From positions 1 through 19,313 of the forward strand of contig CAVWCX010000005.1 of the NCBI GenBank assembly GCA_963753595.1: 19,313 nt of DNA. The letters are read 5' to 3'. Below, in pieces: positions 527 through 18,555 of the stretch (within the stretch, counting starts at the first letter, position 1; each line of letters opens with the position of its first letter). The notes below the pieces were generated by a model that saw only the letters and a program-made list of their open reading frames with translations, made no database searches and was not told where the DNA came from. A program made the position numbers and the translations under genes. The DNA comes from Candidatus Methanoperedenaceae archaeon. Its GTDB lineage: Archaea > Halobacteriota > Methanosarcinia > Methanosarcinales > Methanoperedenaceae.

Positions 527-754
527 ATGGCACACAAAACATTAACAATTTCAGAAGAAGCTTATACGGCGCTGGCTGAGCTCAAAAAAGAAGGCGAAAG
601 CTTTACCGAGCTTATAAAGCGCATCACTAAACCTTTACGAAAGAGGCGCCTGAGTGAGTTTATTGGTGTCTTAAAAGATGATGAAGATTTCGAAAAAGCA
701 GTACTTGAGGTAAGGCATTCCGCAAGTACCAGATTGGAAAGGTTGAAACTGTGA
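527..754 (+). CDS. vapB: VapB-family antitoxin (DUF217-like)
   Basis: 75 aa. 'KTLTISEEAY..L..LKKEGESFTELI.R' is typical of archaeal VapB. GTGA overlap with the downstream PIN gene. Confidence 0.88.
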   Translation: MAHKTLTISEEAYTALAELKKEGESFTELIKRITKPLRKRRLSEFIGVLKDDEDFEKAVLEVRHSASTRLERLKL

Positions 755-1134
755 CTGTCCTCGATAGCGATTTCTTAATATCCATCCTCAGAGGTAAAGG
801 CGTTTCAGAAATAACAGTGGATATGATAGAAGATCCGAAAACAACTATGATAAATGTCTTTGAACTTTATTATGGGGCTATGCGTTCTGTAAACCCGGAT
901 AAAGCGATCATGGAAACAAATTCATTATTCAAGTCTATGGAAATACTTGGCTTTGATAGATTTGCAGCTGCGAAAGCTGCTGATATCCATGCAAAATTAA
1001 TGAATTCAGGAAAGCCTCTGGACATCCAGGACGTTCTCATAGCAGGGATTGTAATATCAAATAAAGAAGAACTTGTGACCAGGAACATTAATCATTTCAG
1101 CCGCATCCCGGGTATGCGATGCAGACAATGGTGA
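751..1134 (+). CDS. vapC: VapC PIN-domain toxin
   Basis: 127 aa with PIN motifs VLDSDFLI, ELYYGA, DVLIAG and LVTRNINHF. Confidence 0.92.
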   Translation: MTVLDSDFLISILRGKGVSEITVDMIEDPKTTMINVFELYYGAMRSVNPDKAIMETNSLFKSMEILGFDRFAAAKAADIHAKLMNSGKPLDIQDVLIAGIVISNKEELVTRNINHFSRIPGMRCRQW

Positions 1135-1452: not shown

Positions 1453-2126
1453 GTTCCATCACTAAGCCGAATCCAAAGTTTTTCGGGAAGATGTGCTTTT
1501 TGCATATCTTCTACCACTTTTTCAATATCATACTTTTTTCGTTTGAGTTGTATTTGCATTTTATCGGTGTCAAGAATAGCAAAAGCTGAATCCGGGTCTA
1601 GATCCCTGGGCTGCCCGACTGAACCCGGATTTATTATTATGCCTTCGGGATATTCTTTCTTGAATTGTATATGTGTATGACCAAGAACAAGAATGTCAGA
1701 ATCGCTCATTGTGAGAAATCCCGGTTCAAAATCCTCAGGATATACATACCGGTCAAGATCTTTCGGGCTTCCATGGACTATGACTATTCTGGCATCATCT
1801 ACGGTTATTGCTTCAATATCTTTGAGCTTTGAAATAAATCCAAGATTCTCACAGGTTATTATCTTTCCTGTCCATTCAAGAGCCGCTGCAGCATATGGAT
1901 TGAATCCAGATGTATCTCCTGTAACAAGCGCTCTTTCATGATTTCCCCGGACCGATATAATCTTTCTTTTTTTGAATGATCCAATCGTCTCATTTGGATA
2001 TGGATTATACCCGACCATGTCTCCTGCATGCAATATTATTTCAACACCCAGTGCATCCATTTCCGAAAGTACGGCTTCAAGGGCAATGACATTTGAATGG
2101 ACATCTGCGATCAACCCGATGAGCAT
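1449..2126 (-). CDS. Metallophosphoesterase (YfcE/MJ0936-like, calcineurin-like superfamily)
   Basis: Motifs DVHSN, GDMVG, GNHE, HGSP, GHTH and NPGSVGQPRD. Start moved to ATG 2126 (MLIGLIAD) because the longer ORF adds no domain sequence. Confidence 0.9.
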   Translation of the reverse strand: MLIGLIADVHSNVIALEAVLSEMDALGVEIILHAGDMVGYNPYPNETIGSFKKRKIISVRGNHERALVTGDTSGFNPYAAAALEWTGKIITCENLGFISKLKDIEAITVDDARIVIVHGSPKDLDRYVYPEDFEPGFLTMSDSDILVLGHTHIQFKKEYPEGIIINPGSVGQPRDLDPDSAFAILDTDKMQIQLKRKKYDIEKVVEDMQKAHLPEKLWIRLSDGT

Positions 2127-2165
2127 ATCAATAAATATACTATGATTTCCCAAATAGTTGACTAC

Positions 2166-3158
2166 ATGAAAAAGGTCAGGGCTTCAATGGGAACACTTGG
2201 CGTACTCGGGCTTGAACTTGTACAAATGGATACGCCTCCTACTACTGCATATCTTCAGATATTCACCGACAAACGCTGCAATGCAAATTGCCAGTTCTGC
2301 GCCCAAGCATCCGGCTCATCTGCAGACCTGACACATATTGCGCGCGGCATGTACATTCCTTTTGATCTTGAAGCCGTGGTGGGACGGTTAAAAATTGCGT
2401 ATGAACGAGGTTATCTTGACCGCACCTGCATACAGACGGCGCTTTATGATACGTGGTGGGAGGACACGGTTTACCTTATTAAAAGGATCAGGGAAGAAAG
2501 CCAGGTACCAATCTCGTTATCGGTTTTTCCATTGAGTACTGGAAAATATGAAGAATTAAAAATACTTGGTGTAAATGAAATTGTCATTCCGCTTGATGCA
2601 TGCACGCCTGGATTATTCGATAAGATAAAAGGAAAAACAACCGGCGGACCCTACTCATGGGAAAAACATATTGAAGGGATAAAAACTGCTTCCCTGGTAT
2701 TTGAAAAAGTCGGAACGCATTTGATAATAGGGCTCGGGGAAAGTGATGAAGATTCAATAAAAGTCATTTCTTATCTTTGGAATAATAACGTTAATACAGC
2801 TTTATTTTCTTATACATTTATTCCAGGGACACAATTAAAAACATCGGATAAAATAGAAAGCGAAACGATCAGGCATTATCGAACCGTACAGCTTGCAAGG
2901 CATCTGATTATTGAAAATATTGCTCCATTTAAAGATATGAGGTTTAAGGAAGGATCATTGATAGATTATGGAGTTGAAGAAAATGTCATACTCCGGATCA
3001 TCGAAGATGGAACAGCATTCAGGACTTCGGGATGTTCCGGCTGCAACAGGCCGATGGCTAATGAAACCTTTTCAAAGATATATAATTTTCCAGGAAAACT
3101 TGATGAAATTGAAAAGGACAATATAAAAAAAGATCTAGGATTAATCAATAACATATAA
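2166..3158 (+). CDS. Radical SAM protein, biotin-synthase-related, LipS2-like (archaeal-type lipoyl synthase component)
   Basis: CxxxCxxC (CNANCQFC) plus C-terminal RTSGCSGCNRP, close to the LipS2 motif TxGCPxC(N/D)RP. Start taken as ATG 2166 (MKKVRAS). Radical SAM call is firm, LipS2 call is moderate. Confidence 0.8.
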   Translation: MKKVRASMGTLGVLGLELVQMDTPPTTAYLQIFTDKRCNANCQFCAQASGSSADLTHIARGMYIPFDLEAVVGRLKIAYERGYLDRTCIQTALYDTWWEDTVYLIKRIREESQVPISLSVFPLSTGKYEELKILGVNEIVIPLDACTPGLFDKIKGKTTGGPYSWEKHIEGIKTASLVFEKVGTHLIIGLGESDEDSIKVISYLWNNNVNTALFSYTFIPGTQLKTSDKIESETIRHYRTVQLARHLIIENIAPFKDMRFKEGSLIDYGVEENVILRIIEDGTAFRTSGCSGCNRPMANETFSKIYNFPGKLDEIEKDNIKKDLGLINNI

Positions 3159-3215
3159 CCACAATCTTAATTTGCACCCCAGACAAGATTACATATTGAC
3201 AGGGAGAGGAATACC

Positions 3216-4325
3216 ATGGAAATATCCGAAAAAATATTCGAAATAACAGATGAAATAGGCCCTGAAAAGATCATTCATTTATATGAACCGCGATCTAAAA
3301 TGAAAGCCATCGTTGTGGTAGATAACGTAGCGGCTGGCCCTGCTATCGGTGGCGTGAGGATGGCCCCTGATGTAACACTTAACGAGGTCAGAAGGCTTGC
3401 GCGTGCTATGACCTACAAAAATGTCATGGCGGGTCTTCCCCACGGAGGCGCAAAATCCGGGATTATCGCTGATCCTAGAACAGTGAACAAGGAGCAAATA
3501 ATAAGGACATTTGCCCGCGGCATAAAAAATCTCCTTGAATATATTCCGGGGCCCGATATTGGTACGGATGAAACATGTATGGCTTATGTCTATGATGAAA
3601 CATCCCGCGCCGTGGGGCTTCCAAGAGAACTTGGAGGCATCCCTCTTGATGAAATTGGCGCAACAGGGTATGGTCTATCTGAATGCGCAGATGTGGCGAA
3701 AGATTACATTGATCTTGACCTGAATGGAGCCCGCGTCACCATAGAAGGATTCGGGAACGTGGGTAAACCTGCGGCGCGTTTTCTTGCCGAAAAAGGTGCA
3801 GTACTTGTCGGAACAAGTGACTCAAAAGGTACGATATATAATTCAAAAGGATTGAATATTGAAGAATTGATACACATTAAGGAATCCACAGGTTCTGTAA
3901 TTAATTATAAAGACGGGGAAGTCTTAAAAACAACAGACCTTTTGCTGATAAATACGGATATCCTTATTCCGGCAGCAAGACCCGATTTCATAAGTGATGC
4001 AAATGCGGATGTAGTCGATGCAAAATTGATAATCCAGGGTGCAAATATCCCTATCACTGAAAGTGCAGAAAAATTGCTGCACGACAGGGGGATACTGGTA
4101 ATTCCTGATTTTGTGGCAAATGCAGGCGGTGTAATAACCGCGTCAGTCGAATATCATGGCGGGACAGAAACGATCGCGCTTGACAGGACAAAAAGCACGA
4201 TCCGAAAGAACACAAAGGAAATCCTTGATAAAGTGTATAGCGACAAAACATATCCCCGTGAAACTGCTGTCGGGATCGCAAAGCAGCGTGTTATGCGGGC
4301 AATGAAATACAGGGAATGGATGTAA
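3216..4325 (+). CDS. Glu/Leu/Phe/Val amino-acid dehydrogenase, probably not glutamate-specific
   Basis: 369 aa with GPAIGGVRM, MTYKN, GGAKS, PGPDIGT, ATGYG, Rossmann GFGNVG and PDFVANAGGV. Confidence 0.9.
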   Translation: MEISEKIFEITDEIGPEKIIHLYEPRSKMKAIVVVDNVAAGPAIGGVRMAPDVTLNEVRRLARAMTYKNVMAGLPHGGAKSGIIADPRTVNKEQIIRTFARGIKNLLEYIPGPDIGTDETCMAYVYDETSRAVGLPRELGGIPLDEIGATGYGLSECADVAKDYIDLDLNGARVTIEGFGNVGKPAARFLAEKGAVLVGTSDSKGTIYNSKGLNIEELIHIKESTGSVINYKDGEVLKTTDLLLINTDILIPAARPDFISDANADVVDAKLIIQGANIPITESAEKLLHDRGILVIPDFVANAGGVITASVEYHGGTETIALDRTKSTIRKNTKEILDKVYSDKTYPRETAVGIAKQRVMRAMKYREWM

Positions 4326-5719
4326 TGCTTTCTTCAATCTTCGAACCGGAATCAGTGGCAGTAATAGGCGCATCGAACAATGAGACAAAATGGGGAGGGC
4401 GGATACTCAAAAACCTGTTAAGCGGTTTCAATGGTAAGATATATCCTGTCAATCCAAAGGAAACTATGGTCCAGGGCCTTGATTCCTATCCATCAGTGCT
4501 TGATATTCCAGGAACAGTGGAGCTCGGGATAATAATTGTGCCTTCCAGGTATGTCCATTCGATCGCGGAAGAATGCGGGAAAAAAGGCATTAAGGGACTT
4601 GTTGTGATAAGCGCAGGATTCAGCGAGGCTGGAAATGAAGGGGCTGAACTTGAACTGGTCGAAATCGCACGAAAATACGGTATGAGGATGATCGGGCCCA
4701 ATACTCTCGGGATCGTCAACGAGCGTGTAAGGCTAAATGCAAGCATTATCGGAAGACTTCCACGCCCGGGATCGATATCTTTTATCACCCAGAGCGGATC
4801 GCTTGGTCTTGCCCTTGCCGAGTGGACGATCGCAACTGAACTTGGCCTTTGCAAAGTGATAAGCACAGGCAATAAGGCCGAGACGGATGACGTTGACTTT
4901 ATAGAATACTTAAGCAACGACCCTTCAACTGGCGTCATAGCCATGTATATAGAAGGGATAAAGCGTGGGAGGAAGTTCCTTGATGCAGCCCGAAACATCA
5001 GGAAACCGATCGTGGCTATAAAGACCGGACGGTCAAAGCGGGGAGCAAAAGCGGTTTTTTCACATACTGGCTCGATTGCGGGTTCTGATGAGGTTTATTC
5101 AGCAGCTTTCAGGCAGGCTGGAATATTGCGCGTGGATACGATCGATGAACTTTTTGATGCAGCACTCGCTTTCTCATGCCAGCCTCTTCCACAGGGAAAT
5201 AATGTTGCCATCTTTTCGAATGGCGGCGGAGCATCAATAGTTGCGGCTGATGAATGTGAGAGACAAAACATAAATATCGCAGACCTTACAGAGGAAACAA
5301 AGGTTAAAATAAAAAAAGTGATCCCGGAATTTGCAACTGTTTCAAATCCCATAGATACGGCAGGAACTGTTTCATTTAAAATATATAACGATTCCATCAA
5401 AGCGCTTCATGATGATCCAAATGTGGATGCCATTATTGTTATCTATGTCCATACAATGATCTCAAACGCAATGCCTCCTGCTGAAGCAGTGGTTGAAATG
5501 AAACAAAAATGTGACAAAGAAACTGGAAAAAAACCCATAATCGCATGCTGGATGGGGGGCATGGGCACTGAGGAAGGGGTGGATCTTTTAAAGAGCGGAT
5601 GTATCCCGAATTATCCTGTCCCTGAAAGGGCAGTGAAAGCTCTTTCTGCTCTTATGAAACACCGGAAATTCCTGGAAACAGTAAAGACAGTTGATGCCAG
5701 GCCAGGGAAGTGCTTATGA
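4325..5719 (+). CDS. acdA: ADP-forming acetate/acyl-CoA ligase alpha subunit
   Basis: CoA-binding VAVIGAS and YPVNP, GPNTLG, TQSGS, phospho-His motif SHTGSIAG, NGGG and NPID. ATG 4325 overlaps the upstream TAA (TAATG). Confidence 0.92.
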   Translation: MLSSIFEPESVAVIGASNNETKWGGRILKNLLSGFNGKIYPVNPKETMVQGLDSYPSVLDIPGTVELGIIIVPSRYVHSIAEECGKKGIKGLVVISAGFSEAGNEGAELELVEIARKYGMRMIGPNTLGIVNERVRLNASIIGRLPRPGSISFITQSGSLGLALAEWTIATELGLCKVISTGNKAETDDVDFIEYLSNDPSTGVIAMYIEGIKRGRKFLDAARNIRKPIVAIKTGRSKRGAKAVFSHTGSIAGSDEVYSAAFRQAGILRVDTIDELFDAALAFSCQPLPQGNNVAIFSNGGGASIVAADECERQNINIADLTEETKVKIKKVIPEFATVSNPIDTAGTVSFKIYNDSIKALHDDPNVDAIIVIYVHTMISNAMPPAEAVVEMKQKCDKETGKKPIIACWMGGMGTEEGVDLLKSGCIPNYPVPERAVKALSALMKHRKFLETVKTVDARPGKCL

Positions 5720-6363
5720 AAATACTTACGGAACATGAAGCAAAAAAGCTCCTTTCAAAATATGGTATAACCGTTACGAAAGAGAGTATCGTGAAAAGCC
5801 CTGATGAAGCATTTGAAATAGCATCACAGATCGCAACTCCTGTTGCCATGAAAATATCATCCCCGGATATTTCGCATAAAACCGATGTGGGCGGAGTTGT
5901 ACTAAATGTTAGTGCGAGTGAGGCAGGGAGTACTTACGACAAGATCCTTTCGCAAATCAAAAAAGCAGCTCCTGATGCAAAGATCGAAGGTATCCTTGTC
6001 CAGCAGATGGCACCGCCTGGCCATGAGTTAATTGTTGGTCTGAAAAAAGACCCACAGTTCGGTCATGCTCTTATGTTTGGCCTTGGCGGAATATTCGTTG
6101 AAGTTTATAAGGACGTTTCATTCAGGGTCGTTCCTATAGAAAAAAATGAAGCCCTGGATATGATCTCTGAAATAAAGGGATATCCGATATTAAAAGGTAT
6201 CAGGGGAAGGAAACCTGCTGATATTGAGGCGATAGCTTCTGTTCTTGTTGCAGTTTCCGAGATGGCGCAAAAGGAGAACATTTTGGAGCTTGATATAAAT
6301 CCGCTGATTGTCGGTGAAACCGGGGCGATAGCAGTGGATGCAAGAGCGATGGTGGAAGAATAG
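5716..6363 (+). CDS. acdB: ADP-forming acetate/acyl-CoA ligase beta subunit (ATP-grasp)
   Basis: EHEAKKLL, MKISSPDISHKTDVGGV, DPQFG, FGLGGIFVE, ELDINPL and AVDAR. ATGA overlap with acdA. Confidence 0.92.
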   Translation: MKILTEHEAKKLLSKYGITVTKESIVKSPDEAFEIASQIATPVAMKISSPDISHKTDVGGVVLNVSASEAGSTYDKILSQIKKAAPDAKIEGILVQQMAPPGHELIVGLKKDPQFGHALMFGLGGIFVEVYKDVSFRVVPIEKNEALDMISEIKGYPILKGIRGRKPADIEAIASVLVAVSEMAQKENILELDINPLIVGETGAIAVDARAMVEE

Positions 6364-6396
6364 TTTTTTATCGTGACTTGTTGTGTCAGTTCTATA

Positions 6397-6861
6397 ATGA
6401 AATATAACATCGATGTAATTTTTTCAAAAGTTCTTGATCGTTATATAGAGATAGAATATTCTACAAAATTGCGATCAATCAGGTTTTTCCGGCCTGGAAA
6501 GCAGCTTATGGAAAAAAAGACACATGACGTTACTTATGAATTAGCACGCTATTTTGATGGGGAAGCAATTGATTTTTCATCAGAGGTGGACTTATCTTCC
6601 CTATCGCCCTTTGAGCAAAAAGTGCTAACAGAAACCAGGAAGATAAAGTACGGAAAAACACTGTCTTATTCTGAACTGGCCGAAAAAATAGGCAGCAGGG
6701 CATATCGGGCAGTCGGGAACGCACTTGGTAAAAATCCAATTCCCATTTTTATTCCCTGCCACAGGGTCGTTGCAAAGAAGGGCATAGGGGGATACTCAGA
6801 AGGAATAGATATTAAAACAAGGTTGCTGGAACTTGAACAAATAAATGCCAATAACCTTTAA
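6397..6861 (+). CDS. ogt: Methylated-DNA--protein-cysteine methyltransferase
   Basis: RAVGNALGKNPIPIFIPCHRV active-site motif. Start at ATG 6397 preferred over GTG 6373, uncertain. Confidence 0.92.
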   Translation: MKYNIDVIFSKVLDRYIEIEYSTKLRSIRFFRPGKQLMEKKTHDVTYELARYFDGEAIDFSSEVDLSSLSPFEQKVLTETRKIKYGKTLSYSELAEKIGSRAYRAVGNALGKNPIPIFIPCHRVVAKKGIGGYSEGIDIKTRLLELEQINANNL

Positions 6862-6864
6862 TAT
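6857..6864 (+). promoter_or_regulatory. Putative TATA box of the tRNA gene
   Basis: TTTAATAT 25-32 nt upstream of the mature tRNA 5' end, overlapping the ogt stop codon. Confidence 0.5.
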
Positions 6865-6888
6865 GTCAAAAATGAATGTGGGGTCAGA

Positions 6889-6960
6889 GCCCCGATGGGG
6901 TAGCGGATATCCTTTGAGATTGCGGATCTTAAGACCTGGGTTCAATTCCCAGCCGGGGCG
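6889..6960 (+). tRNA. tRNA-Arg (anticodon GCG), intronless, CCA not encoded
   Basis: Cloverleaf: acceptor GCCCCGA/CCGGGGC (one A-C mismatch), D arm GGGT...TCCT, anticodon stem TGAGA/TCTTA with loop TTGCGGA, T arm CTGGG-TTCAATT-CCCAG, discriminator G. Confidence 0.93.
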
Positions 6961-7275: not shown

Positions 7276-8184
7276 ATGAAAAATCTATTTGCAAAGATAT
7301 TATTAGTTTCGATTTTGATATCACTTTTTGCTGGCTGCGTCCAGCAGGCACCGACTGAGAATATAACCACTCCAGCAATCACTCAAACATCACCTCCAAC
7401 GACAACTGCTTCCTCCCTTGTGAAAATGCGTTTAGCTACGACAACTTCTACATGCGATACAGGGCTGCTGGATGTCTTTAATAAAAAGTTCGAAGAAGAA
7501 AATAATGTAGAAATATCTACAATATGCGAGGGCACAGGCAAAGCAATAGCCACAGGTGAGCTCGGTGCAGCAGATGTATTAATGGTCCACGCGGTCCAGG
7601 CTGAATTAAAAGCAGTTGCTAATGGCAGTTTCATTAATCGCACTTACATGATGTACAATTATTTTGTGATCATTGGTCCGGAAAATGATCCCGCGGGTAT
7701 CAGGAATGCAACCAATGCTACCAACGCTTTCACAAAGATCGCAGCAAAGCAGTCACCATTCATATCCAGAGGCGACAATTCGGGCACACAGATAATGGAA
7801 TTATCAATATGGAAAGCTGCGAACATCACTCCGGCAGGAACATGGTACGAATCAGTAGGAAAAGGCATGGGAGATACCATCACGACCGCTGACATCAAGA
7901 ATGGTTATACGCTCTCAGACAGGGGAACATATCTTGCAATGAAAGATAAAATAAAACTGAGAATCCTTTTCGAGTCTGATCAGAAGTATCTTTTCAATCC
8001 TTATCATGTCATGGCTGTGAATCCTTCTAAATTCCCGAATGTGAAATACGACCTTGCAATGAAATATATTAACTATGCGACATCTTCGCAGGGACAGGAT
8101 ATCATAAGGAATTATGGCAGGGATAAATATGGAGAAGCGCTATTCGTGCCTGAAGAAGACGCTGGCAACGTAACCAGTCCCTGA
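7276..8184 (+). CDS. tupA: Tungstate ABC transporter substrate-binding lipoprotein
   Basis: Signal peptide with lipobox FAGC, Thr/Pro linker, TupA signature LATTTS, GTG, VHA, SRGDNSGT, LSDRGTY and NPY. Confidence 0.9.
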   Translation: MKNLFAKILLVSILISLFAGCVQQAPTENITTPAITQTSPPTTTASSLVKMRLATTTSTCDTGLLDVFNKKFEEENNVEISTICEGTGKAIATGELGAADVLMVHAVQAELKAVANGSFINRTYMMYNYFVIIGPENDPAGIRNATNATNAFTKIAAKQSPFISRGDNSGTQIMELSIWKAANITPAGTWYESVGKGMGDTITTADIKNGYTLSDRGTYLAMKDKIKLRILFESDQKYLFNPYHVMAVNPSKFPNVKYDLAMKYINYATSSQGQDIIRNYGRDKYGEALFVPEEDAGNVTSP

Positions 8185-8910: not shown

Positions 8911-9904
8911 AACACTTGTGTATCATCCTGAAAAGTGTATAGGATGTGCAACATGTACGATGATATGCCCAAAAGAGGATATGGTGATCGGGTCAGTGGG
9001 AGCAGTAGCACGCGGGCTTATCAACAAAGACTTCCTTTCGAAAGGCAAAGGGGGATGTACAATATGCAGCATGTGCGCAAAGGTATGTCCGACAGGGGCT
9101 CTTGAAGTAAGAAAAGCGGGTAAGTCGGAGATGGATGACTCTTATCTATATGGCTCATTGAAACCCACGTTGGTCAAAGAAAATTGCTTAAACTGCGGGA
9201 TGTGCGAAGAGGTGTGCCCGCAGGATTGTATAGAAGTACAGAAGCGTCAACTTGCGCAGGATGGAAACCTGCGCATGGATGGAAAAACCACAATCGATCA
9301 GAAATCCTGCGTTCACTGCGGCTGGTGTGCATCCATATGCCCGGTTTATGCAATAACAATGGAAAAACCATTTTCAGGGGAATTTTCAAGGGATGAAGAT
9401 GTGTGCCAGGCTTGCCACACCTGTGTGGATACCTGTCCATGCAATGCTCTTTTTAACAAAGAGTGGAAAGCCGGGGAAAGGGTTGAGAAAGTGACACACA
9501 GGAAGGATGCCTGCATATACTGCGGCGCCTGTTCTGCCGCCTGTCCTGTCGGAGCAATAACAGTAAAAAAGACAGCAATACTTCCTGATATGAAGAAAAA
9601 ACAGATATTTGAGAAAAAGCTCACCGCTGAGGCGACTCCAAGACCTCTGTTGACCTCAACACTTATTACGGACATCGATGCGTGCCTTGGCTGTGGCAAT
9701 TGCGTTATTGCCTGCCCTGTTAACGCTTTTTCAGACCCATATCTTGCCGCAGGACACCTAAATGAACTTGACGGGAAACCTCTGCTTGAGGTTGAAAATG
9801 GCAAAGTGAACGTGGTAAACCAGGAAGTTTGCGGTTCGTGTGCTACATGCAGCCTGATATGTCCCACGAATGCGATAAGACTTGAGAAAAGGGAGGTGGC
9901 ATAA
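8876..9904 (+). CDS. fmdF: Formylmethanofuran dehydrogenase polyferredoxin subunit F
   Basis: 342 aa with eight CxxCxxCxxxCP motifs, between fmdE and fmdA. AAGGAG RBS. Confidence 0.88.
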   Translation: MKEVVFQTKEDKTLVYHPEKCIGCATCTMICPKEDMVIGSVGAVARGLINKDFLSKGKGGCTICSMCAKVCPTGALEVRKAGKSEMDDSYLYGSLKPTLVKENCLNCGMCEEVCPQDCIEVQKRQLAQDGNLRMDGKTTIDQKSCVHCGWCASICPVYAITMEKPFSGEFSRDEDVCQACHTCVDTCPCNALFNKEWKAGERVEKVTHRKDACIYCGACSAACPVGAITVKKTAILPDMKKKQIFEKKLTAEATPRPLLTSTLITDIDACLGCGNCVIACPVNAFSDPYLAAGHLNELDGKPLLEVENGKVNVVNQEVCGSCATCSLICPTNAIRLEKREVA

Positions 9905-10959
9905 TGCCTGGGACAATGGTTATAAAAAACGGATTTGTCTCTGATCCGTTGAATGAAATTGATGGGGAAATAAAGGATATTTTTATCAAAGATGGTAAGA
10001 TCACTGATGAGCTCAAAGGCAACAGTTTGCGGGATGCAAAAGAGATCGATGCAAAGGGCAAGACTGTAATGCCAGGGGGTGTTGACTCGCATTCCCATGT
10101 CGCCGGCGCAAAGGTAAACGGGGGAAGGATGATGTGTCCTGAAGACCGCTATAAATGGGTGACAAAGAAGACAGACCTCACACACAGCGGCAGCGGGAAT
10201 ACCGTTCCCTCGGTGTACATCCAGGGTTATGATTATGCAAAAATGGGGTATACCACAGTCTTTGAGGCAGCCATGCCTCCTATGGAAGCAAGACATACCC
10301 ATGAAGAGATGCGTAACACTCCCATCCTGGACATGGGTGCATATATGGTCATGGGCAATAACTGGTTCATAATGCGTTATCTCAAAGAAGGGAATATCGA
10401 GAAAGCCGCAGCATACACCGCATGGATGATGAGAACTCATAAAGCATACGGCATAAAGTGCGTTAATCCGGCCGGGGTCGAGAACTGGGGCTGGGGAAAG
10501 AACGTGAGTTCCCTGGATGAGCCAAATATACATTTTGGCATCAGTCCAAGAGAAGTAATCCATGGACTTGCAGAAATAAACGAAATGCTGGGAATGCCCA
10601 TGTCACTGCATCTTCATGCCAATAATCTGGGGCATCCGAGATGCTGGGAAACTACAAAGGATTCTCTTGAGGTGACGCGCGATGTGAAGGTCAAATGTAA
10701 TATGGATGTAGAATGGCAAAAGACAAAGATCGATCCCCAGAGAAACCAGAGTGTATATCTGGCGCATGCCCAGTTCAACTCGTTCGGTGGTACTTCATGG
10801 GGGGATTTTGAGTCCGGGGCAAAAGGGATTGTAGATTATGTAAACAAGACTGATCATGTCGTAATAGATAATGGCGCTGTTCCCTTCGGACCGGCAACAG
10901 TAATGACCGGGGATTCCCGCGATATAACCCTGGTGAGTACACGGCTGTTGATATGCTGA
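9904..10959 (+). pseudogene. fmdA: Formylmethanofuran dehydrogenase subunit A, 3'-truncated
   Basis: Amidohydrolase motifs PGGVDSHSHVAG, YGIKCVNP, HLHANNLGHP and HAQF. Homology ends at 'ATVMTGD' (10914, codon 337), followed by 14 unrelated residues. Full-length FmdA/FwdA is roughly 570-580 aa. Confidence 0.88.
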
Positions 10960-11267
10960 GGGAACATGATGTGGATGCTGCGTTTGTGATGTCGGCTGAC
11001 CTTGTTTCTCATTTTCCTGCAACTTGTGCTGAATACCTGAAGGAGATACCCATGGCATGCATTGACATTGCGCCATGCCCGACCACGCTGGCTTCTGATG
11101 TTGTTCTGCCCGGGGTGATCGATGCCATGGAATGCGACGGTACATTCTACAGGCTTGATGATGTGCCTGTGTATTTCCAGCCATTTACGAAATCGCCGTT
11201 TGGGTTTACGCAGAGTAATGAAGATACGATGAAGCAGTTGTTTGAGAGGATAAAGAAATTGAAATAG
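10908..11267 (+). pseudogene. fmdB: Formylmethanofuran dehydrogenase subunit B, C-terminal fragment only
   Basis: The frame of ORF 10953-11267 extends upstream as RGFPRYNPGEYTAVDML. It continues DAAFVMSADLVSHFP...AMECDGTFYRLDDVP, matching the FmdB/FwdB C-terminus. No N-terminal Fe-S or pterin-ligand region. Confidence 0.85.
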
Positions 11268-15313: not shown

Positions 15314-16486
15314 GTGAAAACAATAACGACCCCTAAAGAAGCGCTTGAAAAAATAAGGCAGCTTAAAAGCACATATTATTTCAGGCGCGGATCAGAACAT
15401 GTTTCCCTTCCTGACTCCGTAGGCAGGGAACTCAGTGAAGATATTGTCGCAGATTACATGTCTCCAGCATTCGATATTGCTGCCATGGACGGATTTGCTG
15501 TCCATAGCGAAGATGTTTATCCCCTTAAAATATCGGGCAGTGTATATGCAGGTGATCAAAGAGCAGAAATAAAGAGAGGTGAAGTGCTGGCAATAGCTAC
15601 AGGGGCAATACTCCCGGAAGGTGCGGATGCTGTGCTGAAAATTGAGGAGGCAGAGGTCAAAAAGGATCTCCTATATGGAAAAAATCTAATGAAGTGGGAA
15701 AATGTATTCAGAAAAGGCTCGGATTACCATGCAGGTGACAGGATATTTGAGAAAAATCACCGCATAATGCCCCAGAGCGCTGCGCTTTTATACAGCCTTG
15801 GTGTCGAAAAAGTCCCTGTATATAAAAAGATCAGAGCTGGCATAATATCCACTGGCACTGAAATTTTTAACGGCATGATAAAAAATACAAGCTCGGTGCT
15901 GATACAGGGATTTATGAAAGAAATGGGATGTGAATCTACCTTTGCGGGGGCAGTTCCCGATGATTATGATAAAACAAAGAATATGCTGCTCGAAGCCTGC
16001 GAAAAATACGATGTAGTATTTACAACAGGCGGCGTATCAGTTGGAGAGCGCGACTTTGTCGCTGACATCATTACAGAGGTAGGAGAACTTTCATTTCACA
16101 GAGTTGCTATCAGACCGGGGAAACCCATTGCTGTCGGCATTGTGAATGATACACCTGTATTTTCACTTCCTGGCAAACCAACAGGCGCTTTCACTGCTCT
16201 TGAGATAATAGTGCGAAGCTATTTTACGGATATCCCAAGGGCAACGCAGAAGCTTATGATAAATGAGGATGTTATGCTCCCGGAAAAAGATTTTGAATAC
16301 ATCCTTTTCGTACAGATAGTAAATAATACAGCAACCGCCATTGGCAGACAGATGAAGTTGTTTGAAAGGGAATATAAGACAGCACTCATTTCAGCATCTC
16401 CTCGTTCTGCTGTTGTTGAAGGGTATGTAATAACAAACAGGGATATTGAAAAAGGTGAACTGGTAAATGTATATATTTTCAATTGA
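15314..16486 (+). CDS. moeA: Molybdopterin molybdotransferase MoeA
   Basis: P.FDIAAMDGFA, IATGAILPEGADAV, STGTE, TTGGVSVGERDFV, RPGKP and LPGKP. GTG start. Confidence 0.92.
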   Translation: MKTITTPKEALEKIRQLKSTYYFRRGSEHVSLPDSVGRELSEDIVADYMSPAFDIAAMDGFAVHSEDVYPLKISGSVYAGDQRAEIKRGEVLAIATGAILPEGADAVLKIEEAEVKKDLLYGKNLMKWENVFRKGSDYHAGDRIFEKNHRIMPQSAALLYSLGVEKVPVYKKIRAGIISTGTEIFNGMIKNTSSVLIQGFMKEMGCESTFAGAVPDDYDKTKNMLLEACEKYDVVFTTGGVSVGERDFVADIITEVGELSFHRVAIRPGKPIAVGIVNDTPVFSLPGKPTGAFTALEIIVRSYFTDIPRATQKLMINEDVMLPEKDFEYILFVQIVNNTATAIGRQMKLFEREYKTALISASPRSAVVEGYVITNRDIEKGELVNVYIFN

Positions 16487-16518
16487 TAGAAATATGAATG
16501 AAAAAGAAGAGGCTGGGC

Positions 16519-17253
16519 ATGAGCACCGCTGACTTTCTGGTTCAGGGTATCATAAAAGCATTCGAACTAATATTCAGTCTGAATCCTTATATTATGAGTA
16601 TAACAGGGGTATCCATACAGGTTTCTGGCACGGCGACTACCCTTGCGACTCTGACGGCAATTCCCCTTGCGTTCGTAATATCCTTTATGAAGTTTCGGGG
16701 TAAACAGGCGCTCATAACGCTTATTAATACAGGGATGGGATTGCCCCCGGTTTTTGTAGGTCTTTTTGTTTTTTTAATGATCGTGCCTGTCGGGCCTTTA
16801 GGATTCCTGAATATAGTTTATACAAAAGAAGCAATGATACTTGCCCAGTATATTCTTATCACCCCGATAATTACTGGCATTTCTCTTGCAGCAATAAAAG
16901 CGGTCCCTAAATTAATAATAGAGACTGTATATACTCTTGGCGGCACGCAGAAAGATGCAGCTGTTGCGACATTAAAAGAAGCAAGATTCGGCATAATCAC
17001 AGCAGTACTTGCAGGACTTGGAAGGGCGCTTGCGGAAGTGGGAGCAATTCTCATTGTAGGCGGCAACATTGCCCGTACAGGAAGCGTGGGTGGAATAGGT
17101 GAAGGGCTTTCTGAGACCCGCACACTTACGACTGCGATCACATCGGAAACGAGTAAAGGTGATATCTCAACATCGATCGCTCTTGGAATTATCCTGATCT
17201 GCCTTGTTCTCTCTGTGAATATACTGGCTAACTATTTCCAGAGGAGGGATTGA
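16519..17253 (+). CDS. tupB: Tungstate ABC transporter permease
   Basis: Hydrophobic, with GLPPVFVGL, GPLG, GRALAEVGA...VGGNI, TRTLTTAI and ETSKG. Start at 16519 (GAGG upstream) or 16498. Confidence 0.9.
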   Translation: MSTADFLVQGIIKAFELIFSLNPYIMSITGVSIQVSGTATTLATLTAIPLAFVISFMKFRGKQALITLINTGMGLPPVFVGLFVFLMIVPVGPLGFLNIVYTKEAMILAQYILITPIITGISLAAIKAVPKLIIETVYTLGGTQKDAAVATLKEARFGIITAVLAGLGRALAEVGAILIVGGNIARTGSVGGIGEGLSETRTLTTAITSETSKGDISTSIALGIILICLVLSVNILANYFQRRD

Positions 17254-17982
17254 ATGGAGGAATTGTACCGAATAGAAAACCTGGGTAAATCCTTTGGAAA
17301 TAAAAAAGTATTACAAAATATCAACCTAAATATTTTCAAAGGGGAGATATTTGCTTTCATGGGGCCGAGCGGAGTTGGGAAAACCACACTGCTGCGGCTA
17401 TTGAATCTGTTGGAGATGCCCACTACCGGCAAACTTATTTTTGACGGGAATGATAATGCAACATTGCAGAAAAATAACGTTATGCGAAGGATGTCAATGC
17501 TCTTTCAAAGACCTGCGATATTTAACACATCGGTCTTTAATAATGTAGCTTATGGACTGGAGATACGCAAAGTGGATAAGAAAACAATAGAAAAAAAAGT
17601 GATCGATGCCCTGGCTATTGTGGGACTTGCAGGTTGTGAGAAACAGAAAGGCCTTACCCTTTCAGGGGGTGAGGCCCAGCGTATGGCTTTTGCGAGGGCT
17701 ATTGTCTTTAAACCTGATGTCCTTCTTCTTGATGAGCCGACAGCTAATCTTGATCCGGCTAATGTTGCGAAAATAGAAGATATAATACGAAAGATCAAAA
17801 GCGAGCTTGGCACTACGATCATCCTTGCGTCACATAATATCCATCAGGTGCGCCGCCTTGCTGACAGGGCAGGCATCCTGTTGAACGGAGAATTGATCGA
17901 AGTTAACACTAAAGAGCAGATATTCACACACCCGTTTGACGCAAGGTCTTATGCATTTATAAATGGAGAGATTATATATTGA
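17254..17982 (+). CDS. tupC: Tungstate ABC transporter ATP-binding protein
   Basis: GPSGVGKTT, LSGGEAQR, LLLDEPTANLDP and SH switch. Directly abuts tupB. Confidence 0.88.
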   Translation: MEELYRIENLGKSFGNKKVLQNINLNIFKGEIFAFMGPSGVGKTTLLRLLNLLEMPTTGKLIFDGNDNATLQKNNVMRRMSMLFQRPAIFNTSVFNNVAYGLEIRKVDKKTIEKKVIDALAIVGLAGCEKQKGLTLSGGEAQRMAFARAIVFKPDVLLLDEPTANLDPANVAKIEDIIRKIKSELGTTIILASHNIHQVRRLADRAGILLNGELIEVNTKEQIFTHPFDARSYAFINGEIIY

Positions 17983-18009
17983 TGGAACTTACTTAAAATC
18001 AAGGTCGCA

Positions 18010-18555
18010 ATGGAAAGAACACAGGTTAAGACAAAATTATGGCTTGTAAATGACAAAGATGAGCCCATAATGGGTGGGGGAAAAGTATCTTTACTTGAAG
18101 CTATTAAAGAGGAGGGTTCACTTAACAAAGCATGCAAAAAAGTCGATATATCCTATAAGCATGCATGGCTCCTCCTGAGAGAAATTGAAGAAAGCGTGGG
18201 AGAACCCGTAATAATAAAAAGACGGGGTGGAAAAGACCAGGGCACATTTTTAACAGAAAAGGCAATAAACTTAATAGATGAATATGTTACATATCAAAAT
18301 ATCCTTGCTGAAACAATCTATGATAAAACTTTCTGGGAGGTGATCGGATTGAAAATATCTGCAAGAAACCAGATGAAAGGAAAAGTACTGGAAATCGAAA
18401 AGGGGGACCTTGTGACAAAGGTAAAGATCCAGATAGAACCTGCAACGATAACTGCGGTTATCACAACTGAAGCTGTCGAATCCCTCGATATCAAGAAAAA
18501 TGATAAAGTGATGGCTATAGTAAAAGCAACAGAAGTTATGATCGGAAAGGAATGA
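18010..18555 (+). CDS. modE: ModE-family regulator (winged HTH + single TOBE domain)
   Basis: LLEAIKEEGSLNKAC...ISYKHAW...RGG wHTH, followed by TOBE ISARNQMKG...AVIT...IVKATEV. Confidence 0.9.
   Translation: MERTQVKTKLWLVNDKDEPIMGGGKVSLLEAIKEEGSLNKACKKVDISYKHAWLLLREIEESVGEPVIIKRRGGKDQGTFLTEKAINLIDEYVTYQNILAETIYDKTFWEVIGLKISARNQMKGKVLEIEKGDLVTKVKIQIEPATITAVITTEAVESLDIKKNDKVMAIVKATEVMIGKE

What the first reader, a model, noticed from the sequence alone, without database searches (positions are those of the whole stretch)
2166..6363. LipS2-like radical SAM + non-glutamate amino-acid dehydrogenase + ADP-forming acyl-CoA synthetase: candidate amino-acid-to-acid module
Seen: four co-directional genes. 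Dehydrogenase-acdA-acdB are coupled by TAATG and ATGA overlaps, and the radical SAM gene ends 57 nt upstream. Known: ELFV dehydrogenases make 2-oxoacids, lipoate-dependent 2-oxoacid dehydrogenase complexes make acyl-CoA, and ACD converts acyl-CoA to acid + ATP. Inference: the block supplies the first step, the last step and a cofactor enzyme for a hydrophobic amino acid to carboxylate pathway. The reverse, salvage of branched acids, is also possible. Either would be unexpected in a methane-metabolising archaeon, where ACD is usually read as acetate production. The middle enzyme is not in this window.
Basis: partly seen in the sequence, partly recalled or inferred. Interest (0 to 1): 0.7.

Follow-up and report, generated by a model that had tools for sequence, protein, structure and literature searches.

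The report
Amino-acid dehydrogenase plus ACD operon
A methane-oxidising archaeon (Methanoperedens) keeps a non-glutamate amino-acid dehydrogenase in one operon with its only intact ATP-yielding acyl-CoA synthetase, which suggests a hidden link between amino acids and organic acids, while the neighbouring lipoate gene is only a chance neighbour.

Summary
The radical SAM gene is a LipS2 lipoyl synthase. The dehydrogenase is an ELFV enzyme that lacks the glutamate-binding residues. AcdA and AcdB form a two-subunit ADP-forming acyl-CoA synthetase.

The dehydrogenase-acdA-acdB unit is the real feature. It is tightly co-directional in 46 of the 49 other genomes examined in families f1-f3 of the order. 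A different ACD lies within 6 kb of the dehydrogenase gene in 14 of 18 f4 genomes.

LipS2 is not part of it:
- It lies upstream in only 16 of 31 congeners and in 0 of 37 genomes of other genera.
- A conserved promoter-like box sits between it and the dehydrogenase.
- No lipoyl E2 was found in this genome.

The missing middle enzyme is a ferredoxin-dependent 2-oxoacid oxidoreductase with fused gamma-delta subunits. It lies beside the dehydrogenase gene in other archaea and in 25 of 80 public loci, mostly bacterial. In this genome it is unlinked, on contig C18.

My reading is a module: hydrophobic amino acid <-> 2-oxoacid <-> acyl-CoA <-> acid (+ATP). Direction and substrate remain open, because sister clusters carry AMP-forming ligases. 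I rate it a new variant of a known kind.

The parts
2166..3158 (+). LipS2-family radical SAM lipoyl synthase (330 aa; CX3CX2C at residues 38-45). An adjacent gene, judged NOT part of the module.
   Evidence: NCBIfam NF053743 scores 294.8 bits against a cut-off of 270. Pfam Radical_SAM. Translation. Upstream of the dehydrogenase in only 16 of 31 congeners and in 0 of 37 genomes of other genera. Single copy at varying places in the family.
3162..3173 (+). Conserved box CAATCTTAATTT in the 57-nt gap. A candidate archaeal BRE/TATA promoter element for the dehydrogenase-acd operon (inferred).
   Evidence: Present with at most 2 mismatches within 110 nt upstream of the dehydrogenase start in 30 of 31 genomes of genus g1 and 2 of 2 of genus g2, with or without LipS2 upstream. 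Absent from the other families. Its function was not tested.
3202..3209 (+). Purine-rich Shine-Dalgarno-like GGGAGAGG, 6 nt before the dehydrogenase ATG.
   Evidence: Read from the sequence. Conserved as GGGAGAGG or GGGAGG in most relatives printed.
3216..4325 (+). ELFV-superfamily amino-acid dehydrogenase (369 aa) with a hydrophobic side-chain pocket. It is not a glutamate dehydrogenase.
   Evidence: Pfam PF02812 and PF00208. All NCBIfam GDH models score far below their cut-offs. Aligned to the T. maritima GDH (PDB 2tmg), GPAKGG becomes GPAIGG and GGVTVS becomes GGVITA. A hydrophobic residue sits at that Lys position in 71 of 72 order sequences.
4325..5719 (+). acdA, alpha subunit of an NDP-forming acyl-CoA synthetase (464 aa). 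Its start overlaps the dehydrogenase stop (TAATG).
   Evidence: Pfam CoA_binding_2, Succ_CoA_lig and Ligase_CoA_2. TIGR02717 scores 539 bits against a cut-off of 567. PDB relatives are 2csu and 4xyl. SHTGS loop seen in the translation.
5716..6363 (+). acdB, ATP-grasp beta subunit (215 aa). Its start overlaps the acdA stop (ATGA).
   Evidence: Pfam ATP-grasp_5, 266 bits. Translation. Junction.
6373..6861 (+). ogt (methylated-DNA-protein-cysteine methyltransferase), 9 nt after acdB. A possible passenger in the transcript, not conserved at this place.
   Evidence: Pfam DNA_binding_1 and TIGR00589. No Ogt match appeared next to acdB in any related locus. Other genes follow acdB there instead.

Best explanation
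The functional unit is the operon dehydrogenase-acdA-acdB (3216-6363), with its own promoter in the 57-nt gap. LipS2 is an unrelated neighbour.

The dehydrogenase interconverts a neutral, hydrophobic L-amino acid and its 2-oxoacid, using NAD(P)+ and ammonia. A ferredoxin-dependent 2-oxoacid oxidoreductase interconverts the 2-oxoacid and the acyl-CoA one carbon shorter. The prime candidate is the second POR/VOR-type enzyme with fused gamma-delta subunits on contig C18 (about 35.5-38.5 kb). AcdAB interconverts acyl-CoA + ADP + Pi and acid + ATP + CoA.

I favour the oxidative direction in Methanoperedens. There, amino acids, for instance from protein turnover, would yield NAD(P)H, reduced ferredoxin and one ATP by substrate-level phosphorylation, as in Thermococcales.

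What is shown:
- the gene families and the overlapping junctions;
- loss of the glutamate-binding residues;
- conserved and repeatedly re-assembled clustering of the three enzyme types.

What is inferred: the promoter, the identity of the oxidoreductase partner in this genome, the substrate (branched-chain or other aliphatic amino acids is my guess) and the direction.

Odds: module as such about 0.75; oxidative direction about 0.5; reductive salvage about 0.35.
For: Junctions and families.

Pocket (rule from a passage of PMC2723916): Lys-to-Ile and Ser-to-Ala at the two glutamate-specific positions. This holds in 71 of 72 order sequences. The single exception is the genome's own GDH paralogue.

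Synteny:
- Tight dehydrogenase->acdA in f1 31 of 34, f2 7 of 7, f3 8 of 8.
- In f4, a different ACD (32-37% identity) lies within 6 kb in 14 of 18.

Complete three-enzyme clusters:
- f4 genus g20 in 3 of 5 genomes: dehydrogenase divergent from gamma-delta/alpha/beta-acdA-acdB.
- One f3 genome: alpha-beta-dehydrogenase-acdA.
- A Nitrospinales genome: all six genes co-directional.
- 25 of the 80 named loci have the gamma-delta-fused oxidoreductase beside the dehydrogenase gene.

The dehydrogenase tree puts f1/f2/f3/f5 and f4 in separate lineages, each paired with a different ACD type. The pairing therefore arose more than once.

Oxidoreductase partner: each of 5 genomes searched has exactly two POR-family alpha subunits, the canonical PorA and a second one. 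The second is dehydrogenase-linked in f3 and f4. The second ones fall outside the canonical PorA clade, with 100/99 support.

The window's AcdAB is the only intact stand-alone ACD in this genome. The C30 copy is an ACD-GNAT fusion and the C27 copy is in fragments.

A recombinant ANME-2a Acd formed acetate from acetyl-CoA with a Km of 31 uM (PMC7414198, passages). This shows the ATP-forming direction is feasible.

Promoter box.
Against: - No expression data. No RNA run was listed, so co-transcription and the promoter are inferred.
- In this genome the oxidoreductase is unlinked. 4 of the 49 f1 genomes, G000 included, lack a C18-type gamma-delta match, and 3 of those 4 still carry a dehydrogenase orthologue.
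- The C18 alpha subunit is only 40-43% identical to the dehydrogenase-linked alphas. That is about the same as to its own PorA. Orthology rests on the tree and the shared fusion.
- Against the oxidative direction: 7 f4 loci and 20 of 80 named loci carry AMP-forming acyl-CoA ligases in the cluster, and these normally activate acids.
- Most carriers are chemolithotrophs or methane-cycling archaea, not amino-acid fermenters.
- Oxidoreductase subunits score best on pyruvate-type models, and only acetyl-CoA was assayed for the ANME-2a Acd. The substrate could therefore be alanine/pyruvate rather than a branched-chain amino acid.
- AcdA scores below the TIGR02717 cut-off.
- The numbering of the pocket residues is partly recalled.
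Confidence: 0.5

Rival explanations
1. Same three enzymes, reverse direction. Short or branched-chain acids are activated by AcdAB at the cost of one ATP. They are then reductively carboxylated by the ferredoxin-dependent oxidoreductase and reductively aminated by the dehydrogenase. The result is amino acids, either as salvage or as an electron sink when acceptors run short.
For: - AMP-forming ligases sit in sister clusters. An MbcS-like ligase (best NCBIfam hit NF047394, 568.6 bits, below the 850 cut-off) occurs in f4 genus g19 (4 of 4) and g20 (3 of 5).
- A PRK12583-type ligase occurs in 20 of 80 named loci, 15 of them as dehydrogenase-oxidoreductase-ligase.
- Carriers are mostly autotrophs or methane-cycling archaea.
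- Methanogen VOR/IOR enzymes are anabolic, and ADP-forming ligases activate acids in ammonia-oxidising archaea. Both points are recalled, not checked here.
- Earlier scan note e1-2112635 reports low-oxygen control of the bacterial cassette. This is unchecked, and would fit an electron-sink role.
Against: - Separate-subunit ACDs of archaea are classically ATP-forming. The ANME-2a enzyme was shown to work in that direction (PMC7414198).
- Known Leu, Val and Phe dehydrogenases are catabolic (recalled).
- No acid transporter was seen beside the operon.
Confidence: 0.33
2. The module handles alanine, pyruvate, acetyl-CoA and acetate. The dehydrogenase is an ELFV-type alanine (or 2-aminobutyrate) dehydrogenase working with a pyruvate-type oxidoreductase, and the ACD is an acetate enzyme. 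Together they form an overflow or redox valve around acetyl-CoA.
For: - The linked oxidoreductases score highest on PorA/PorB models.
- E1-alpha subunits next to the dehydrogenase gene in two of the three alphaproteobacterial E2-linked loci pass the PDH E1-alpha model TIGR03181.
- The ANME-2a Acd has a Km of 31 uM for acetyl-CoA.
- Methanoperedens is reported to excrete acetate when nitrate is limiting (PMC9058156, passages).
Against: - The pocket carries smaller residues (Gly112, Ala309) than I recall for leucine dehydrogenase at those positions. That suggests room for larger side chains, not alanine (positions recalled).
- No ELFV-family alanine dehydrogenase is known to me.
- The best ligase hit in f4 is a branched-chain acid ligase family.
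- All oxidoreductase scores are below the PorA and PorB cut-offs.
Confidence: 0.12
3. LipS2 supplies lipoate to a lipoate-dependent 2-oxoacid dehydrogenase complex, which forms the middle step between the dehydrogenase and the ACD.
For: - LipS2 ends 57 nt upstream on the same strand.
- In 3 of 26 bacterial loci whose neighbours were scanned, a lipoyl E2 with E1 genes lies directly upstream of the dehydrogenase gene.
- The genome does hold LplA/LplB, two GcvH-like proteins and two LipS1-like genes.
Against: - No PF00198 E2 was found in this 92%-complete genome.
- LipS2 adjacency holds in 16 of 31 congeners and in 0 of 37 genomes of other genera.
- LipS2 is kept single-copy elsewhere in genomes where it is not adjacent.
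- The ancestral upstream neighbour is a divergent Tpt1/KptA gene.
- The conserved promoter box lies between the two genes.
Confidence: 0.03
4. There is no pathway. The dehydrogenase is a nitrogen-assimilating glutamate dehydrogenase, as several databases name it, and its position next to acd is historical accident.
For: JGI and some NCBI records name close homologues 'glutamate dehydrogenase'. The best PDB sequence matches are GDHs.
Against: - Both glutamate gamma-carboxylate ligand positions are replaced in all orthologues. The genome keeps a separate true GDH.
- Translational coupling to acdA.
- The dehydrogenase has been independently re-associated with ACDs, ligases and oxidoreductases in distant lineages.
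Confidence: 0.02

Closest known systems
Peptide and amino-acid fermentation of Thermococcales: aminotransferases plus GDH, then POR/VOR/IOR/KGOR, then ACD I/II (recalled; touched on in PMC7414198 passages)
   Same: The same last two steps and the same logic. A 2-oxoacid is oxidised by a ferredoxin-dependent oxidoreductase to an acyl-CoA. A two-subunit NDP-forming acyl-CoA synthetase then converts it to acid plus ATP. The authors report that the ANME-2a Acd clusters with Pyrococcus Acd.
   Different: The first step here is a direct NAD(P)-linked ELFV dehydrogenase instead of a transaminase/GDH couple. The oxidoreductase has fused gamma-delta subunits. The hosts are methane-cycling Methanosarcinales, which are not known to ferment amino acids. 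The direction is unproven.
Bacillus subtilis bkd operon: ptb-bcd-buk-lpdV-bkdAA-bkdAB-bkdB, i.e. leucine dehydrogenase, branched-chain 2-oxoacid dehydrogenase and Ptb/Buk (recalled, not checked here)
   Same: One gene cluster joins an ELFV hydrophobic amino-acid dehydrogenase, a 2-oxoacid decarboxylating enzyme and an acyl-CoA-to-acid step that can yield ATP.
   Different: A lipoate-dependent complex and Ptb/Buk there. A ferredoxin-dependent oxidoreductase and ACD here. The dehydrogenase here is closer in sequence to archaeal and Thermotoga GDHs (E 1e-62) than to leucine dehydrogenases (E 1e-39).
ANME-2a Acd, proposed to support 'acetogenesis by ANME' (PMC7414198; passages read)
   Same: A two-subunit (55 + 25 kDa) ADP-forming enzyme from a relative in the same order. 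It is probably the orthologue of the acdAB seen beside the dehydrogenase in the other families of the order. I could not check this, because the sequence was not in hand.
   Different: That work assayed acetyl-CoA only. The word isobutyryl does not occur in its main text, and the passages I read mention no neighbouring dehydrogenase. Here the gene context argues for a wider or different role.
Bacterial cassette of amino-acid dehydrogenase, ferredoxin-dependent 2-oxoacid oxidoreductase and CoA ligase (earlier scan note e1-2112635; seen independently here)
   Same: An orthologous dehydrogenase (52-62% identity) and the same gamma-delta-fused oxidoreductase type. It likewise links an amino acid, a 2-oxoacid and an acyl-CoA.
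   Different: The bacterial form uses an AMP-forming ligase and keeps all genes in one operon. The Methanoperedens form uses ACD and has the oxidoreductase unlinked.
Anabolic VOR/IOR of methanogens, which assimilate branched-chain and aryl acids by reductive carboxylation (recalled: Tersteegen 1997; Porat 2004)
   Same: Ferredoxin-dependent interconversion of acyl-CoA and 2-oxoacid in a methanogen relative. This is the basis of the salvage rival.
   Different: Those pathways end in transaminases and are not clustered with an ELFV dehydrogenase or an ACD. The oxidoreductase here scores nearer POR than VOR models.

Membership tests
ELFV (Glu/Leu/Phe/Val) amino-acid dehydrogenase superfamily | N-terminal dimerisation/substrate domain plus C-terminal NAD(P) Rossmann domain | tested here: met
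   PF02812 at 98.1 bits and PF00208 at 186.3 bits, both above their cut-offs. GFGNVG at residues 178-183.
ELFV (Glu/Leu/Phe/Val) amino-acid dehydrogenase superfamily | Catalytic Lys in GG(G/A)K, alpha-carboxylate Lys in (T)xKN, catalytic Asp in (G/A)PD, Asn in GAN (the roles are recalled) | tested here: met
   K80, K68, D114 and N277 are invariant in the 13-sequence alignment A1. The motifs are kept in the order-wide set, with one MTLRN among 72.
Glutamate dehydrogenase | Lys (CsGDH K89) and Ser (S380) that bind the glutamate gamma-carboxylate | tested here: not met
   Ile44 and Ala309 sit at these positions (alignment to PDB 2tmg). 71 of 72 order sequences are hydrophobic at the Lys position. 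NCBIfam GDH models score 229 against a cut-off of 750 and lower. The rule comes from a passage of PMC2723916. My placing of K89 in the GPxKGG motif is recalled.
Leucine, valine or phenylalanine dehydrogenase | Hydrophobic residues at the LeuDH L40, A113, V291 and V294 positions, and closest sequence kinship to these enzymes | tested here: inconclusive
   The residues are I44, G112 (Ala in other families), V306 and A309. That is hydrophobic, but smaller at two positions. PDB LeuDH matches (E 8e-39) are weaker than GDH matches (E 4e-62). No Leu, Val or Phe dehydrogenase model was among the NCBIfam matches; the only non-GDH ELFV match, ScyB tryptophan dehydrogenase, scored far below its cut-off.
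NDP-forming acyl-CoA synthetase (ACD), two-subunit type | Alpha subunit with a CoA-binding domain, a succinyl-CoA-ligase-like flavodoxin domain and a ligase-CoA domain; separate ATP-grasp beta subunit | tested here: met
   PF13380, PF13607 and PF19045 in AcdA. PF13549 at 266 bits in AcdB. PDB 2csu at E 9e-117 and 4xyl at E 3e-111.
NDP-forming acyl-CoA synthetase (ACD), two-subunit type | Score above the curated cut-off of the 'acetate--CoA ligase alpha subunit' model | tested here: not met
   TIGR02717 scores 539.0 bits against a cut-off of 567.15. The acetate-specific name is therefore not earned by score.
NDP-forming acyl-CoA synthetase (ACD), two-subunit type | Phosphohistidine loop in alpha and a second His in beta (motifs recalled) | tested here: inconclusive
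   SHTGS is seen in AcdA and SHKTDVGGV in AcdB. I did not align them to a solved ACD residue by residue.
LipS2 lipoyl synthase | Equivalog model above cut-off, and a radical SAM CX3CX2C motif | tested here: met
   NF053743 scores 294.8 against a cut-off of 270. CNANCQFC is in the translation.
LipS1/LipS2-LplAB lipoate assembly system | Partner LipS1, an LplA/LplB ligase and a lipoyl acceptor protein in the genome | tested here: inconclusive
   Two LipS1-like genes score 223.7 and 218.8 bits, just under the cut-off of 230. LplB is above its cut-off and LplA below it. There are two tandem GcvH-family proteins. No E2 or GcvT was found.
Lipoate-dependent 2-oxoacid dehydrogenase complex as the middle enzyme | An E2 acyltransferase (PF00198) encoded in the genome | tested here: not met
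   0 matches in G000, which is 92.3% complete. The control search hit 10 of 14 reference genomes.
Thermococcales-type amino acid -> 2-oxoacid -> acyl-CoA -> acid + ATP pathway | A ferredoxin-dependent 2-oxoacid oxidoreductase besides the housekeeping POR | tested here: met
   A second POR/VOR-type enzyme lies on C18, with gamma-delta fusion, alpha and beta subunits, all below the PorA and PorB cut-offs. A two-subunit OAFO_sf enzyme lies on C1.
Thermococcales-type amino acid -> 2-oxoacid -> acyl-CoA -> acid + ATP pathway | Net flux from amino acids to acids with ATP gain | not testable with these tools
   This needs enzyme assays, labelling or transcript data. No RNA run was listed.

The most novel reading that the evidence does not exclude
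The acd gene used as the marker for 'acetogenesis by ANME' is really the end enzyme of a conserved module of amino acid, 2-oxoacid and acyl-CoA. That module would give Methanoperedens, related families of the order and some methanogens a hidden second metabolism. One form is fermentation of hydrophobic amino acids for maintenance ATP. The other is the reverse: reductive synthesis of amino acids from short acids, CO2 and ammonia, acting as an electron sink when acceptors run out. In both cases an ADP-forming enzyme replaces the costlier AMP-forming ligase of the bacterial cassette.
Probability: 0.3. Interest if true: 0.8.

Novelty: new variant of a known kind. Interest (0 to 1): 0.6.

Why it matters
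The papers I read treat ACD in Methanoperedens and ANME-2 as an acetate-forming enzyme (PMC9058156, PMC7414198, PMC13079720; passages). I found none that mentions the dehydrogenase translationally coupled to it.

If the operon links amino acids and short acids, several things follow:
- Carbon and energy budgets of methane-oxidising archaea would need another term.
- Acd abundance would no longer be a clean proxy for acetogenesis.
- The routine database name 'glutamate dehydrogenase' for this protein would be wrong.

The question is directly testable with two recombinant enzymes and existing enrichment cultures.

The wider cassette of dehydrogenase, gamma-delta-fused oxidoreductase and a CoA ligase or ACD is widespread in bacteria and, in the searches above, undescribed.

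Tried and rejected
- **RNA evidence.** The look-up of sequencing runs listed no RNA holder for window 2100-6900. Read laying was therefore not used, and co-transcription stays untested.
- **Promoter and terminator scan.** The sigma-70 scan gave no more sites than shuffles (13 found against 15.4 expected; 4 against 4.8). It does not apply to archaeal promoters.
- **LipS1 search.** Searching the genome with the LipS2 protein found only LipS2 itself. LipS1 candidates came only from the family model.
- **IOR candidate.** The IOR_alpha-like gene on C34 (481 aa, 318.7 bits against a cut-off of 650.9) shows only the TPP-binding domains in Pfam, and the gene just upstream (TiaS-like) is not an IorB. 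I dropped it as a candidate partner.
- **Literature.** Four searches for the dehydrogenase plus ACD or oxidoreductase in methanogens or ANME found nothing relevant. Two papers on Methanosarcina pyruvate metabolism are not held. A PFOR review has no occurrence of 'amino acid dehydrogenase' or 'leucine dehydrogenase'. I opened no supplementary files. Those of PMC7414198 and of PMC10332631 (lipoate gene tables for archaea) may bear on the acd context and on LipS1/S2 in this lineage.
- **Earlier notes of this scan.** None near this place.
- **Structure tools.** Structure prediction, fold search and complex prediction were not run. They could not settle substrate or direction.
- **Inverted repeat.** I looked for one around the promoter box. 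The arms are not conserved among the relatives printed, so I dropped it.

Full report
**Observation.**

The window is the whole of contig C5 (19,313 bases) of a 2.89-Mb genome in 37 contigs, 92.3% complete. The nearest named relatives are Candidatus Methanoperedens (record titles at 90% and 86% identity; source names).

- A radical SAM gene, 2166-3158.
- An ELFV dehydrogenase, 3216-4325.
- acdA, 4325-5719.
- acdB, 5716-6363.

The junctions are real: a 57-nt gap, a TAATG overlap and an ATGA overlap.

The family calls also hold.
- The radical SAM protein passes NCBI's LipS2 equivalog model (294.8 bits, cut-off 270).
- The dehydrogenase has both ELFV domains.
- AcdA and AcdB have the domains of a two-subunit NDP-forming acyl-CoA synthetase. 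AcdA falls just short of the 'acetate--CoA ligase alpha' cut-off (539 against 567).

**The dehydrogenase is not a glutamate dehydrogenase.**

Aligned to the Thermotoga maritima GDH (PDB 2tmg), the query reads GPAIGG where the GDH reads GPAKGG. It reads GGVITA where the GDH reads GGVTVS. These are the positions of the Lys and Ser that hold the glutamate gamma-carboxylate. Leucine dehydrogenase replaces them with Leu40 and Val294 (passage of PMC2723916). My placing of the Lys in the GPxKGG motif is recalled.

Of 72 sequences drawn from the order, 71 have Ile, Leu, Met or Val at the Lys position. The single one with Lys and Ser is this genome's own 423-aa paralogue on C27, the true GDH. The residues for catalysis and for the alpha-carboxylate are invariant.

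Databases call close homologues 'Glu/Leu/Phe/Val dehydrogenase' or, wrongly in my view, 'glutamate dehydrogenase'. By overall sequence the protein is nearer to GDHs than to leucine dehydrogenases. I take it to be a separate hydrophobic-pocket lineage. Its exact substrate is open.

**What travels with what.**

A hit of at least 50% identity to the dehydrogenase is present in 92 of 151 sampled genomes of the order, counting this one (my count from the table). I examined the surroundings in 68 of the other 91. These were the 29 best-scoring loci given by the tool with 1.5-kb flanks, plus 39 that I chose for spread with up to 7-kb flanks.

acdA follows the dehydrogenase gene tightly and on the same strand as follows.

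| Family | Tight dehydrogenase->acdA |
|---|---|
| f1 | 31 of 34 |
| f2 | 7 of 7 |
| f3 | 8 of 8 |

Two of the three f1 misses are contig ends. The third has 1.5 kb downstream without acdA.

In family f4 the tight form is absent (0 of 18). A different ACD (32-37% identity) lies within 6 kb in 14 of 18. The one f5 genome has none.

LipS2 behaves differently.
- It lies upstream in 16 of 31 other genomes of the genus and in 0 of 37 genomes of other genera.
- It is nevertheless a single-copy gene in 44 of 50 other genomes of the family, often on another contig.
- In many loci without LipS2, in f1, f2 and f5, the upstream neighbour is a divergent Tpt1/KptA gene.
- A box, CAATCTTAATTT (window 3162-3173), starts 4 nt after the LipS2 stop. 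It is kept upstream of the dehydrogenase start in 30 of 31 g1 and 2 of 2 g2 genomes, whether or not LipS2 is present.

I read the box as the operon's own archaeal promoter. This is an inference. No RNA run was listed.

**The middle enzyme.**

The genome has no detectable lipoyl E2 or GcvT. It does hold four candidate oxidoreductases.
- A canonical PorABCD on C36.
- A second POR/VOR-type enzyme on C18, with fused gamma-delta (299 aa), alpha and beta subunits, all below the PorA and PorB cut-offs.
- A two-subunit OAFO enzyme on C1.
- A doubtful IOR-like gene on C34.

Elsewhere, an oxidoreductase with the same gamma-delta fusion lies next to the dehydrogenase gene.
- In f4 genus g19, 4 of 4 genomes.
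- In f4 genus g20, 3 of 5. There the layout is dehydrogenase divergent from gamma-delta/alpha/beta-acdA-acdB.
- In one f3 genome: alpha-beta-dehydrogenase-acdA.
- In a Methanothrix contig.
- In a Nitrospinales genome, where all six genes are co-directional.
- In 25 of the 80 named loci returned in all.

Each of five genomes searched has exactly two POR-family alpha subunits, the canonical PorA and one other. That other is the dehydrogenase-linked one in f3 and f4. In a tree the canonical PorA clade is split from all the others, including the C18 type, with 100/99 support.

The C18 type is kept at 70% identity or more in 45 of the 49 f1 genomes, this one included.

I therefore name the C18 enzyme as the likely partner, with moderate confidence. 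Its identity to the linked alphas is only 40-43%.

In 3 of 26 bacterial loci whose neighbours I scanned, a lipoyl E2 with E1 genes stands in the same place.

**Independent assembly.**

The dehydrogenase tree puts f1, f5, f2 and f3 together. f4 and Methanothrix fall inside a proteobacterial clade. The ACDs paired with the two lineages are only about a third identical. Two separate lineages have thus each brought a dehydrogenase of this family next to an ACD. I take that as strong evidence of a shared pathway.

**Direction and substrate.**

The window's AcdAB is the only intact stand-alone ACD of this genome. The C30 copy is fused to a GNAT acetyltransferase and the C27 copy is in fragments. A recombinant ANME-2a Acd made acetate from acetyl-CoA with a Km of 31 uM. 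Only acetyl-CoA was assayed (PMC7414198, passages).

These points, and the catabolic role of known ACDs and hydrophobic ELFV enzymes (recalled), favour amino acid -> acid + ATP.

Against this stand the AMP-forming ligases.
- The f4 clusters also carry an AMP-forming ligase. Its best family hit is the branched-chain acid ligase MbcS (568.6 bits, cut-off 850).
- 20 of the 80 named loci carry another AMP-forming ligase, 15 of them as dehydrogenase-oxidoreductase-ligase.
- Such ligases normally activate acids.

I confirmed the cassette but not the control.

The oxidoreductase subunits score best on pyruvate-type models, so alanine/pyruvate cannot be excluded.

I therefore commit to the three-step module (about 0.75). 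I lean to the oxidative direction (about 0.5), with salvage at about 0.35.

**Comparison and novelty.**

The logic is that of Thermococcales peptide fermentation and of the Bacillus bkd operon (both recalled). Three things differ.
- A direct dehydrogenase replaces the transaminase/GDH couple.
- A gamma-delta-fused ferredoxin-dependent oxidoreductase and an ACD replace the lipoate-dependent complex and Ptb/Buk of the Bacillus operon.
- The hosts are methane-cycling archaea.

The papers I read treat acd in Methanoperedens and ANME as acetate formation. Five searches found none that links it to an amino-acid dehydrogenase. I rate it a new variant of a known kind, with interest 0.6.

Noticed in passing
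window 9904-11267: The formylmethanofuran dehydrogenase cluster looks broken. fwdA stops after 351 aa, matching model positions 2-319 of 556. It is followed at once by a 104-aa frame that matches only the last part of FwdB (positions 325-421 of 421). This is either a deletion of roughly 2 kb or an assembly join.
   Followed up: no
G000 C24:74346-75156; C2 (L079 7960-10095); C3:103583-104275; C23:92331-93143: The genome has a dispersed lipoate assembly set: LipS2, two LipS1-like genes just under the cut-off, and lplB-lplA followed by a geranylgeranyl-reductase-family flavoprotein. It also has two tandem GcvH-family proteins between a cbb3-oxidase-like gene and an IS4 transposase. No E2 or GcvT client was found. 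What the lipoylated H-like proteins serve in Methanoperedens is unexplained.
   Followed up: partly
G000 C18:35469-38495 (L188 4721-8496): The second oxidoreductase operon (gamma-delta, alpha, beta) is followed on the same strand by a glutaredoxin and by a ferredoxin-thioredoxin-reductase-like protein with a rubredoxin domain. This hints at thiol-redox control or electron supply.
   Followed up: no
G000 C27:54704-56409 (L187 3205-4909) and C30:40863-43652: A second ACD is in pieces: an ATP-grasp fragment of 129 aa, a CoA-binding fragment of 94 aa and an alpha fragment of 332 aa. It is probably a pseudogene. A 929-aa ACD-GNAT fusion looks like a Pat-type protein acetyltransferase.
   Followed up: partly
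loci L107-L169 (named bacterial records): A five-gene cassette is widespread in Proteobacteria, Nitrospirota, Planctomycetota and others: dehydrogenase, gamma-delta-fused oxidoreductase (3 genes) and an AMP-forming acyl-CoA ligase. 15 of 80 loci have both the oxidoreductase and the ligase. The f4 and Methanothrix dehydrogenases and oxidoreductase alphas nest among bacterial ones, which suggests transfer between domains.
   Followed up: partly
L118 4091-7095 (Anabaena sp. 4-3): Here the dehydrogenase orthologue (59% identity) follows an indolepyruvate/phenylpyruvate-decarboxylase-like TPP enzyme (467.6 bits, cut-off 554.5). The pairing is reminiscent of ScyA/ScyB of scytonemin synthesis (recalled).
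   Followed up: no
window 751-1134; 7276-8184 and 15314-18555: A PIN-domain (VapC-like) gene lies near the contig start. Downstream of the operon lies a molybdate/tungstate-type set around the fwd genes: a periplasmic binding protein, FmdE, a polyferredoxin, FdhD, MoeA, an ABC permease and ATPase, and a TOBE/HTH regulator.
   Followed up: no
L006 (G074:C18): One close congener (90% identical dehydrogenase, with LipS2 upstream) shows no acdA in the 1.5 kb downstream of the dehydrogenase gene. All other f1 loci with that much flank do.
   Followed up: no
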